This document shows positions 59,692 to 62,600 of a stretch of 64,000 bases of DNA, in pieces. Under the pieces are notes generated by a model. That model made no database searches and was not told the DNA's origin. It saw only the letters and a list, made by a program, of their open reading frames with translations. Position 1 is the first letter of the stretch, and each line of letters opens with the position of its first letter. Source of the stretch: Escherichia coli (GTDB lineage Bacteria > Pseudomonadota > Gammaproteobacteria > Enterobacterales > Enterobacteriaceae); NCBI RefSeq assembly GCF_016026235.1, contig NZ_CP065613.1; one strand, 5' to 3'. The position numbers and the translations under genes were made by a program.

Positions 59692-62600
59692 ATGGCTACG
59701 AAGAAGAGAAGTGGAGAAGAAATAAATGACCGACAAATCTTATGCGGGATGGGTATCAAACTACGCCGCTTAACTGCGGGTATCTGCCTGTAACTCAACT
59801 TGTGTTCCCTATGGCTGCGGCAGCACAAGGTGTGGTAAACGCCGCAATCCAACAACCAGTTCCTGCACAAATCGCCATTGCAAATACCAATACGGTGCCC
59901 TACACCCTAGGAGCGCTGGAATCGGCCCAAAGCGTTGCCGAACGTTTCGGTATTTCGGTGGCTGAGTTACGCAAACTCAACCAATTTCGTACGTTTGCTC
60001 GAGGTTTTGATAATGTCCGCCAGGGTGATGAACTGGATGTCCCGGCACAAGTTAGTGAAAAAAAATTAACCCCGCCGCCGGGTAATAGCAGTGACAACCT
60101 CGAGCAACAGATAGCCAGTACTTCACAGCAAATCGGGTCTCTGCTCGCCGAAGATATGAACAGCGAGCAAGCGGAAAATATGGCGCGTGGATGGGCCTCT
60201 TCTCAGGCTTCAGGCGCAATGACAGACTGGTTAAGCCGCTTCGGTACCGCAAGAATCACGCTGGGCGTGGATGAAGATTTTAGCCTGAAGAACTCCCAGT
60301 TCGATTTTCTCCATCCGTGGTATGAAACGCCTGATAATCTCTTTTTCAGTCAGCATACTCTCCATCGTACTGACGAGCGTACGCAGATTAACAACGGCTT
60401 GGGTTGGCGTCATTTCACTCCCACATGGATGTCGGGCATCAACTTCTTTTTCGACCACGATCTTAGCCGTTACCACTCCCGCGCCGGCATTGGCGCGGAG
60501 TACTGGCGCGACTATCTAAAATTAAGCAGTAACGGCTATTTGCGACTGACAAACTGGCGCAGCGCACCTGAACTGGACAACGATTATGAAGCACGCCCGG
60601 CCAATGGCTGGGATGTACGCGCAGAAGGCTGGTTACCCGCCTGGCCGCACCTTGGCGGTAAACTGGTCTATGAACAGTATTATGGCGATGAAGTGGCCCT
60701 GTTCGATAAAGACGATCGGCAAAGTAATCCTCATGCCATAACCGCTGGACTTAACTATACCCCCTTCCCGCTGATGACCTTTAGCGCGGAGCAACGTCAG
60801 GGTAAACAGGGCGAAAATGACACCCGTTTTGCCGTCGATTTTACCTGGCAACCTGGCAGCGCAATGCAGAAACAGCTTGACCCGAATGAAGTCGCTGCAC
60901 GGCGTAGCCTTGCAGGCAGCCGTTATGATCTGGTGGATCGCAACAACAACATCGTTCTGGAATATCGCAAAAAAGAACTGGTCCGCCTGACCCTGACAGA
61001 CCCCGTGACAGGGAAGTCAGGAGAAGTGAAATCACTGGTTTCGTCGCTACAAACCAAATATGCCCTGAAAGGCTATAACGTCGAAGCCACCGCTCTGGAA
61101 GCTGCCGGTGGTAAAGTGGTTACAACGGGTAAAGATATTCTGGTTACCCTGCCGGCGTACCGGTTCACCAGTACGCCAGAAACCGATAACACCTGGCCGA
61201 TTGAAGTCACCGCTGAAGATGTCAAAGGCAATTTTTCGAATCGTGAACAGAGCATGGTAGTCGTTCAGGCACCTACGCTAAGCCAGAAAGATTCCTCGGT
61301 ATCGTTAAGTACCCAGACGTTGAGCGCGGATTCCCATTCAAGCGCCACACTGACTTTTATTGCTCATGATGCAGCAGGTAATCCTGTTATCGGGCTGGTG
61401 CTCTCGACGCGTCACGAAGGTGTTCAGGACATCACCCTTTCTGACTGGAAAGATAATGGTGACGGAAGCTATACCCAGATCCTGACCACAGGAGCGATGT
61501 CTGGCACGCTGACGCTGATGCCACAGCTGAACGGTGTGGATGCGGCTAAAGCCCCCGCCGTGGTGAATATCATTTCTGTTTCGTCATCCCGGACTCACTC
61601 GTCAATTAAGATTGATAAGGACCGTTATCTCTCCGGGAATCCTATCGAGGTGACGGTAGAACTGAGAGATGAAAATGACAAACCTGTTAAGGAGCAAAAA
61701 CAGCAACTGAATACCGCAGTCAGCATCGACAACGTGAACCCTGGTGTCACTACAGACTGGAAAGAAACCGCAGATGGCGTCTATAAGGCAACCTATACCG
61801 CCTATACCAAAGGCAGTGGGCTTACTGCGAAGCTGTTAATGCAAAACTGGAATGAAGATTTGCATACCGCTGGATTTATCATCGACGCCAACCCGCAGTC
61901 AGCGAAAATTGCGACATTAGCTGCCAGCAATAATGGTGTGCTCGCCAATGAGAATGCAGCAAACACCGTCTCGGTCAATGTCGCTGATGAAGGAAGCAAC
62001 CCAATCAATGATCATACCGTCACGTTTGCGGTATTAAGCGGATCGGCAACTTCCTTTAACAATCAAAACACCGCAAAAACGGATGTTAATGGTCTGGCGA
62101 CTTTTGATCTGAAAAGTAGTAAGCAGGAAGACAACACGGTTGAAGTCACCCTTGAAAATGGCGTGAAACAAACGTTAATCGTCAGTTTTGTCGGCGACTC
62201 GAGTACCGCGCAGGTTGATCTGCAGAAGTCGAAAAATGAAGTGGTCGCTGACGGCAATGACAGTGCCACAATGACAGCGACAGTTCGGGATGCAAAAGGC
62301 AACCTGCTCAATGACGTCAAGGTCACCTTCAATGTCAATTCAGCAGCAGCGAAACTGAGCCAAACCGAAGTGAATAGCCACGACGGGATCGCCACAGCTA
62401 CGCTGACCAGTTTGAAAAATGGTGATTATACGGTTACGGCCTCTGTGAGCTCTGGTTCTCAGGCTAATCAACAGGTGAATTTTATCGGTGATCAAAGTAC
62501 TGCTGCCCTGACCCTCAGTGTGCCTTCAGGTGATATCACCGTCACCAACACAGCTCCGCAACATATGACTGCAACCTTGCAGGATAAAAATGGCAACCCA

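What the first reader, a model, noticed from the sequence alone, without database searches (positions are those of the whole stretch)
59692..59830. yeeJ adhesin loses its signal peptide to an early frameshift
The N-terminal frame stops after 33 codons. The long adhesin frame continues in another phase from about 59742, so the signal sequence is separated from the passenger domain.
Basis: seen in the sequence. Interest (0 to 1): 0.35.

Follow-up and report, generated by a model that had tools for sequence, protein, structure and literature searches.

The report
yeeJ adhesin gene broken by one-base deletion
A single missing base near the start of the E. coli adhesin gene yeeJ cuts its export signal in half, so the gene is most likely an ordinary, recently made pseudogene, or possibly a one-base sequencing error, in a gene already known to be broken in many strains.

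Summary
An ORF with a strong Shine-Dalgarno starts at ATG 59692 and stops at TAA 59791-59793 after 33 codons. The YeeJ reading frame continues in another phase, without a stop, to the window end.

Alignment with intact yeeJ genes puts the cause at about 59790. The window reads CCTG-TAACT where its closest relatives read CCTGGTAACT and K-12 reads TCTGATAACT. Restoring one G gives an N-terminus identical at 73 of 73 residues to an intact, PGAP-named YeeJ.

The break lies inside the hydrophobic core of the signal peptide, not between the signal and the passenger. No later start codon has a ribosome-binding site or restores a convincing signal peptide.

The 36-nt junction is absent from 5,426 complete E. 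coli genomes, whereas the repaired 37-mer matches 539 exactly. It is also absent from the GTDB species representatives and the JGI metagenomes.

The rest of the window shows no scattered single-base indels, so the deletion is probably real and recent. Reads are needed to exclude an error.

Disrupted yeeJ alleles are already documented (15 of 96 genomes, Martinez-Gil 2017). There is no recoding signal and no repeat tract. The finding is ordinary and of low interest.

The parts
59304..59379 (+). tRNA-Asn (asnT), the conserved upstream neighbour of yeeJ
   Evidence: ARAGORN and Rfam tRNA at 72.9 bits. The same mtfA - tRNA-Asn - yeeJ order is found in K-12 AB1157, WS0115A and TR01.
59680..59688 (+). 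Shine-Dalgarno sequence (GGGAAGGTA) serving ATG 59692
   Evidence: The duplex with the 16S 3' end is -8.6 kcal/mol. The other four candidate starts give -2.2 to +0.9 kcal/mol.
59692..59793 (+). N-terminal remnant of yeeJ: 33 codons plus TAA. It encodes the N-terminal extension, the charged n-region (KLRR) and the first half of the signal-peptide hydrophobic core (LTAGICL).
   Evidence: All 33 residues are identical to intact YeeJ of WS0115A, TR01 and K-12.
59789..59791 (+). Site of the 1-bp deletion. The window has CCTG-TAACT where relatives have CCTGGTAACT (K-12: TCTGATAACT). The missing base is the first base of codon 34 (Val, Ile or Ala in intact alleles). In the closest relatives the site is a Dcm motif, CCTGG.
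   Evidence: Alignment A1, pairwise gaps, Dcm-site check. The junction 36-mer has 0 hits and the repaired 37-mer has 539 exact hits in 5,426 genomes.
59742..59789 (+). Out-of-frame lead-in of the long ORF (MRDGYQTTPLNCGYLP). It overlaps the short ORF, has no homology to YeeJ and has no ribosome-binding site at its ATG.
   Evidence: A 40-aa query containing this peptide found no database protein that carries it.
59790..64000 (+). Body of yeeJ in the shifted frame. It is uninterrupted and runs off the window end. It holds the rest of the signal peptide (VTQLVFPMAAAA, predicted cleavage after 59825), LysM at about 59901-60047, the beta-barrel at 60120-60947, then Invasin_D3 and Big_1 repeats. The allele is the long UMN026 type.
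   Evidence: Translation without stops. Pfam IAT_beta covers residues 127-402 of the ORF, and there are 8 Big_1 stretches. The allele is colinear with the 7,984-nt gene of Ecol_545. LysM is placed from Martinez-Gil 2017 and from PGAP's 'LysM domain-containing protein' fragments; it was not recovered by my Pfam scan at E<=1e-3.

Best explanation
The window carries a private, evolutionarily recent single-base deletion in codon 34 of yeeJ. One G of CTG-GTA has been lost; in the closest relatives this site is the Dcm motif CCTGG. yeeJ encodes a type Ve (inverse autotransporter) adhesin.

Shown: ribosomes starting at the only well-served start (ATG 59692) read 33 native codons and stop at TAA 59791-59793, in the middle of the hydrophobic core of the Sec signal peptide. 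The remaining part of the gene (more than 4.2 kb inside the window, probably about 8 kb in all) is in the -1 phase. It has no Shine-Dalgarno at any downstream start and no intact signal peptide.

Inferred: no exportable YeeJ is made. Any product reinitiated at ATG 59742, GTG 59802 or ATG 59811 would stay in the cytoplasm. The long untranslated mRNA would be exposed to Rho-dependent termination. The strain is therefore a yeeJ null for surface display, peptidoglycan anchoring and YeeJ-mediated biofilm formation. The gene is an ordinary young pseudogene.
For: - The 1-bp gap is the only indel between the window and intact yeeJ of K-12, WS0115A and TR01 from 59692 to 62899.
- Adding back one G gives an N-terminus identical at 73 of 73 residues to WS0115A YeeJ.
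- The downstream frame has 0 stops in 1,424 codons, and its differences from relatives are mostly synonymous (22 to 42 synonymous against 14 to 20 nonsynonymous codons out of 1,035). Decay has therefore not progressed.
- The Shine-Dalgarno duplex is -8.6 kcal/mol at ATG 59692 and no better than -2.2 kcal/mol at the other starts. The best 12-residue hydropathy falls from 1.97 to 1.58, and the KLRR n-region is lost.
- Assembly quality argues against a random error. There are no single-base indels in the 14 kb of backbone that is 99.9% identical to F8704-2. 31 of 32 Dcm sites there are unchanged, which rules out systematic Dcm-site miscalling.
- yeeJ disruption is common. 15 of 96 genomes have disrupted copies (PMC5595812). 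FORC 064, I2 and Ecol_545 have frameshifted or fragmented yeeJ in RefSeq.
Against: - The junction is seen nowhere else. It has 0 hits in 5,426 complete E. coli genomes, in the GTDB species representatives and in the JGI metagenomes. No protein carries the alternative-frame N-terminus. No independent assembly therefore corroborates it, and a private singleton is also what a consensus error looks like.
- Martinez-Gil et al. themselves warn that yeeJ frameshifts in genome records may be sequencing or assembly artefacts.
- No reads are available.
- Loss of export is predicted from simple hydropathy, charge and Shine-Dalgarno calculations. It was not measured and not run through SignalP.
Confidence: 0.7

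Rival explanations
1. The missing G is a sequencing or consensus error in the assembly. The strain's real yeeJ is intact (CCTGGTAAC).
For: - The junction is unique in every collection searched, while the repaired 37-mer is exact in 539 genomes.
- The rest of the gene is flawless.
- The base lies in a GG dinucleotide inside a Dcm motif. From my own knowledge, not tested here, that context is error-prone for some nanopore basecallers.
- Martinez-Gil 2017 raises this possibility for yeeJ frameshifts and cites the upaH precedent in CFT073.
Against: - The window is otherwise clean. It has no single-base indels across 14 kb at 99.9% identity to F8704-2, and only two other 1-bp differences from K-12 in 58208-62899, both intergenic.
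- All other Dcm sites compared are free of indels.
- The window has 140 CCWGG sites against 116 expected from composition.
- GG is not a long homopolymer.
- Real yeeJ pseudogenes are frequent.
Confidence: 0.22
2. The gene still makes an adhesin. Translation starts at ATG 59742 in the long frame and gives a hybrid N-terminus (MRDGYQTTPLNCGYLPVTQLVFPMAAAA|QG) that still works as a weak Sec signal.
For: The long frame has an in-frame ATG upstream of the junction. It keeps the C-terminal half of the h-region and the AAA|Q cleavage motif. The body of the gene is fully intact.
Against: - There is no Shine-Dalgarno pairing at 59742 (+0.4 kcal/mol), and the ATG lies inside the translated short ORF.
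- The n-region has no net positive charge (R and D cancel).
- The hydrophobic core is shortened and interrupted by N, T and Q. The best 15-residue hydropathy is 1.41 against 1.94.
- No other genome uses this arrangement.
Confidence: 0.05
3. The shift is programmed or switchable: either ribosomal or transcriptional recoding, or phase variation at a repeat tract.
For: None beyond the fact that two overlapping frames exist.
Against: - A -1 shift would be needed at C-CUG-UAA. There is no X-XXY-YYZ slippery heptamer and no A or T run, and the +1 frame is closed (sequence).
- There is no simple-sequence repeat at the site, only GG.
- Rfam finds only the tRNA in 59150-60100.
- None of the roughly 2,800 orthologous 5' ends shares the arrangement, which a conserved recoding site would require.
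Confidence: 0.01

Closest known systems
Intact yeeJ (b1978) of E. coli K-12 MG1655 and the long yeeJ-UMN026 variant (Martinez-Gil et al. 2017, Sci Rep 7:11326, PMC5595812)
   Same: - Same locus, downstream of mtfA and tRNA-Asn.
- Same N-terminus, LysM, IAT beta-barrel and Invasin_D3/Big_1 passenger.
- 98-99.8% DNA identity at the 5' end.
- The allele here is colinear with the long UMN026-type gene of Ecol_545.
   Different: One base is missing in codon 34. As a result, the start codon and half of the signal peptide are out of frame with the rest of the gene.
Disrupted yeeJ alleles already reported: 15 of 96 complete genomes (PMC5595812), and the RefSeq examples FORC 064, I2 (gene in four fragments) and Ecol_545 ('frameshifted')
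   Same: The same gene is inactivated by frameshifts or internal stops at the same chromosomal position.
   Different: Those alleles break at other positions, such as after the LysM domain or within the passenger, and often carry several lesions. This one has a single lesion, the earliest possible, inside the signal peptide, and it is not shared with any genome searched.
upaH of E. coli CFT073, an apparent frameshift later shown to be a misassembly (cited in PMC5595812)
   Same: A large repetitive adhesin gene that is annotated as truncated in a genome record. It serves as a caution that such lesions can be artefacts.
   Different: The upaH problem arose in repetitive passenger sequence. Here the lesion is in unique 5' sequence, where misassembly is not an issue and only a base-calling error could apply.

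Membership tests
YeeJ / type Ve inverse autotransporter adhesin | Inverse-autotransporter beta-barrel domain (Pfam PF11924) located N-terminal to the passenger | tested here: met
   IAT_beta, E=1.9e-113, residues 127-402 of the long ORF, covering positions 2-279 of the 279-position profile.
YeeJ / type Ve inverse autotransporter adhesin | Passenger made of Invasin_D3 and Big_1 Ig-like repeats | tested here: met
   Big_1 E=7.7e-128 in 8 stretches; Invasin_D3 E=8.4e-77.
YeeJ / type Ve inverse autotransporter adhesin | Orthologous position downstream of mtfA and tRNA-Asn (asnT), with near-identity to named yeeJ genes | tested here: met
   The 5' 800 nt are 98.1% identical to K-12 yeeJ and 99.4% identical to WS0115A yeeJ.
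YeeJ / type Ve inverse autotransporter adhesin | [quoted passage not shown] | tested here: inconclusive
   No LysM hit at E<=1e-3 in my Pfam scan. The residues are conserved with K-12 YeeJ, whose LysM domain binds peptidoglycan experimentally. PGAP names the equivalent fragment 'LysM domain-containing protein'.
YeeJ / type Ve inverse autotransporter adhesin | N-terminal Sec signal peptide in frame with the rest of the protein, giving a functional, exportable product | tested here: not met
   A stop follows codon 33, inside the h-region, and the remainder is in another frame. The locus is therefore a yeeJ pseudogene rather than a functional member.
YeeJ / type Ve inverse autotransporter adhesin | C-terminal C-type lectin-like domain | not testable with these tools
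   The gene runs off the window end at 64000.
Frameshift pseudogene | An indel relative to intact orthologues that causes a premature stop, with the reading frame restored by reversing it | tested here: met
   (73 of 73 residues identical after adding one G).
Frameshift pseudogene | The lesion is present in the organism's DNA and not only in the assembly | not testable with these tools
   No reads are available. The indirect evidence is a clean window.
Programmed ribosomal frameshift / recoding site | A slippery sequence, and conservation of the two-frame arrangement among homologues | tested here: not met
   No slippery motif at 59785-59795. 0 of 5,426 genomes share the junction.
Phase-variable (contingency) adhesin gene | A simple-sequence repeat tract at the site of the frame change | tested here: not met
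   The site is a GG dinucleotide in unique sequence.

The most novel reading that the evidence does not exclude
The frameshifted allele is not dead. Translation from ATG 59742, or reinitiation just after the TAA, yields a YeeJ with a hybrid signal peptide that is still exported at a low level, or a cytoplasmic form with some other effect.

A related reading concerns origin. The deletion arose at a Dcm site (CCTGG) through error-prone very-short-patch repair in a strain that encodes dcm and vsr in the same window.
Probability: 0.05. Interest if true: 0.25.

Novelty: already known. Interest (0 to 1): 0.07.

Why it matters
It matters little beyond annotation and strain phenotype.

If the deletion is real, this strain cannot display YeeJ. 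It should lack YeeJ-dependent biofilm formation even when the gene is derepressed. The locus should be annotated as a frameshifted pseudogene rather than as two ORFs.

It adds one more allele, the most N-terminal one seen here, to the documented pattern of yeeJ decay in E. coli. It does not open a new question.

Tried and rejected
- **Independent copies of the junction.** I searched for them to separate a lineage mutation from a singleton:
  - a 63-nt and a 36-nt query against 5,426 complete E. coli genomes (positive control);
  - an exact 25-mer in the GTDB species representatives and in the JGI metagenomes;
  - an exact look-up of the 33-aa peptide;
  - a 40-aa alternative-frame peptide against 5.8 billion proteins, whose only hit was a normal partial YeeJ N-terminus.

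  All were negative. The protein search sees cluster representatives only, so it is weak evidence.
- **Error-prone assembly.** I tested whether the window comes from an assembly full of indels or with systematic Dcm-site miscalls. The evidence does not support this.
- **Recoding or phase variation.** I looked for an RNA element, a recoding signal or a repeat at the site. There is none.
- **Promoter scan.** The consensus scan of 59380-59900 found no sigma-70-like site, against 0.9 expected by chance. This is uninformative about the yeeJ promoter.
- **Source genome.** I could not identify it. The best 10-kb match at the locus is 98.2%. The backbone at 1-14 kb is 99.9% identical to O39:NM F8704-2, E110019 and others.
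- **Signal-peptide prediction.** No SignalP-type predictor was available, so the loss of the signal peptide rests on hydropathy, charge and Shine-Dalgarno calculations.

Full report
**What is in the sequence**

The window at 59692 has an ATG preceded by a strong Shine-Dalgarno (GGGAAGGTA). Its predicted duplex with the 16S 3' end is -8.6 kcal/mol. That frame reads MATKKRSGEEINDRQILCGMGIKLRRLTAGICL and stops at TAA 59791-59793 after 33 codons.

A second frame is open from the TGA at 59727-59729. Its first ATG is at 59742, and it runs without a stop for 1,424 codons to the window end.

**What the gene is**

The long frame carries three Pfam domains:
- an inverse-autotransporter beta-barrel (IAT_beta, E=1.9e-113);
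- eight Big_1 stretches (E=7.7e-128);
- Invasin_D3.

The locus lies downstream of mtfA (58406-59203) and tRNA-Asn (59304-59379). That is the arrangement in K-12 AB1157, WS0115A and TR01, where PGAP annotates the gene as 'inverse autotransporter adhesin YeeJ' or 'Ig-like domain-containing protein'.

The 5' 800 nt are 98-99.8% identical to those genes. The allele is colinear with the 7,984-nt gene of strain Ecol_545. That length equals the K-12 length plus the 906-bp insert that defines the long yeeJ-UMN026 variant.

**Where and what the lesion is**

In every listed hit the 801-nt query spans 802 nt of the record. The alignment puts the gap at about 59790:
- The window reads TGCCTG-TAACTCAA.
- TR01 and WS0115A read TGCCTGGTAACTCAA.
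- K-12 reads TGTCTGATAACTCAA.

This is the only indel inside yeeJ between 59692 and 62899 when compared with K-12, WS0115A and TR01. Re-inserting one G gives an N-terminus identical at 73 of 73 residues to the intact YeeJ of WS0115A.

The frame change is therefore at codon 34, which is Val, Ile or Ala in intact alleles. It is not at 59742, which is merely the first ATG in the stretch where the second frame happens to be open.

**What it does to the protein**

YeeJ is reported to have an N-terminal signal sequence, a 49-residue LysM domain that binds peptidoglycan, the beta-barrel, the Ig-repeat passenger and a C-type lectin domain (PMC5595812). That paper argues for a start about 18 codons downstream of the annotated one. 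The only in-frame ATG there is codon 20 (59749). Both candidate starts lie upstream of the deletion, so the outcome is the same.

The n-region (KLRR) and the first half of the h-region (LTAGICL) are in the short ORF. The rest of the h-region and the predicted AAA|Q cleavage motif (VTQLVFPMAAAA|QG) are in the long frame. The signal peptide is bisected, not detached whole.

Downstream start candidates in the long frame are ATG 59742, GTG 59802 and ATG 59811. Their anti-Shine-Dalgarno pairing is +0.4 to +0.9 kcal/mol. ATG 59749, in the original frame, gives -2.2 kcal/mol.

The ATG 59742 product has no net-positive n-region and a weaker hydrophobic core. Its best 15-residue Kyte-Doolittle mean is 1.41, against 1.94 for the native sequence.

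I infer three things that are not shown:
- No exportable YeeJ is made.
- Any reinitiated product would be cytoplasmic.
- The long untranslated message would be subject to Rho-dependent polarity (established knowledge of bacterial nonsense polarity).

**Is it shared?**

The junction was found nowhere else:
- The 36-nt junction has no match in 5,426 complete E. coli genomes.
- The same sequence with the G restored matches 539 genomes exactly, which serves as the positive control.
- The best hits of a 63-nt query all contain the extra base.
- An exact 25-mer is absent from the GTDB species representatives and from the JGI metagenome contigs.
- The 33-aa peptide is not a called gene anywhere.
- A 40-aa query carrying the alternative-frame N-terminus found only a normal partial YeeJ N-terminus.

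The lesion is private to this sequence.

**Real or artefact?**

Reads are not available, so I looked at the quality of the surrounding sequence.

- The 14-kb chromosomal backbone at the start of the window is 99.9% identical to E. coli O39:NM F8704-2. It has no single-base indels there, only one clean 66-bp deletion.
- From 58208 to 62899 there are only two other 1-bp differences from K-12, both intergenic.
- The ancestral site CCTGG is a Dcm motif, and methylated motifs are a known source of systematic nanopore errors (my own knowledge). I therefore checked all Dcm sites in the aligned stretches.
  - 31 of 32 in the backbone are unchanged. The one exception is a substitution, and the yeeJ site is the only one with an indel.
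  - The window has 140 CCWGG sites against 116 expected from composition.
  - There is therefore no systematic error pattern.

Real yeeJ decay is common. 15 of 96 genomes carry disrupted copies. FORC 064 and I2 have the gene in four fragments, and Ecol_545 is annotated 'frameshifted'.

Against this, a private singleton in an otherwise perfect gene is also what a consensus error looks like. The gene has 0 stops, and 22-42 synonymous against 14-20 nonsynonymous codon differences from relatives. Martinez-Gil et al. explicitly warn about this and cite the upaH precedent.

I put a real, recent mutation at about 0.7 and an artefact at about 0.2.

**Rejected alternatives**

- Programmed recoding is excluded. 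There is no slippery heptamer or homopolymer at C-CUG-UAA, the +1 frame is closed, Rfam finds nothing but the tRNA, and the arrangement is not conserved.
- Phase variation is excluded because there is no repeat tract.
- A functional hybrid signal peptide from ATG 59742 cannot be strictly excluded but is unlikely.

**Verdict**

This is an ordinary early frameshift in a known, frequently pseudogenised adhesin gene. The corrections concern the exact junction (59790) and the fact that the signal peptide is split rather than separated. Novelty is nil beyond a new private allele, and interest is low.

Noticed in passing
window 9425-9436 (hprS, ORF 8349-9641, minus strand): The sensor-kinase gene hprS (yedV) lacks 66 bp (22 codons, in frame) that are present in all listed relatives. 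The deletion lies between two copies of a 12-bp direct repeat, near the N-terminal part of the protein. The ORF is 430 aa here against 452 aa in F8704-2. The top hits of a junction query all span the extra 66 bp, so this deletion also looks private to the genome.
   Followed up: partly
window ~14300-58200: A lambdoid prophage of about 44 kb is integrated next to tRNA-Ser(cga) at 58223-58312. Its integrase is at 57155-58195 and an exonuclease at 54452-56893. It carries a four-tRNA cluster (Gly-tcc, Thr-tgt, Lys-ttt, Met-cat) at 43365-43674. K-12 has yodB at this position instead.
   Followed up: no
window 59786-59790 and 2140-4009: The deleted G lies in what is a Dcm methylation motif (CCTGG) in the closest relatives. 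The dcm and vsr genes themselves are in the same window. Whether very-short-patch repair played a part in the deletion is pure speculation.
   Followed up: partly
window 13717-13721: A Dcm site that reads CCAGG in F8704-2 reads CCAAG here. On the other strand that is CCTGG to CTTGG, the classical 5-methylcytosine deamination signature.
   Followed up: no
window 62726-64000: The yeeJ passenger contains a near-identical tandem duplication of about 609 bp (about 203 aa, two Ig-like domains). This is typical of the long UMN026-type allele and is a region where misassembly is a risk.
   Followed up: partly
window 58169 and L004/L006 integrase: The prophage integrase is an intact 346-aa ORF in the window. 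Relative to the window, Ecol_545 has 10 extra bases and TR01 23 extra bases at 58169, near the 3' end of the integrase gene. PGAP annotates the integrases of Ecol_545 and FORC 064 as frameshifted.
   Followed up: no
whole window: The source genome is not among the 5,426 complete RefSeq E. coli genomes. The backbone at 1-14 kb is 99.9% identical to O39:NM F8704-2, E110019 and some APEC strains. The yeeJ end is closest to 'O157:H7' TR01 and WS0115A (99.4-99.8% over 800 nt) and reaches only 98.2% over 10 kb. This indicates a recombinant mosaic around asnT.
   Followed up: partly
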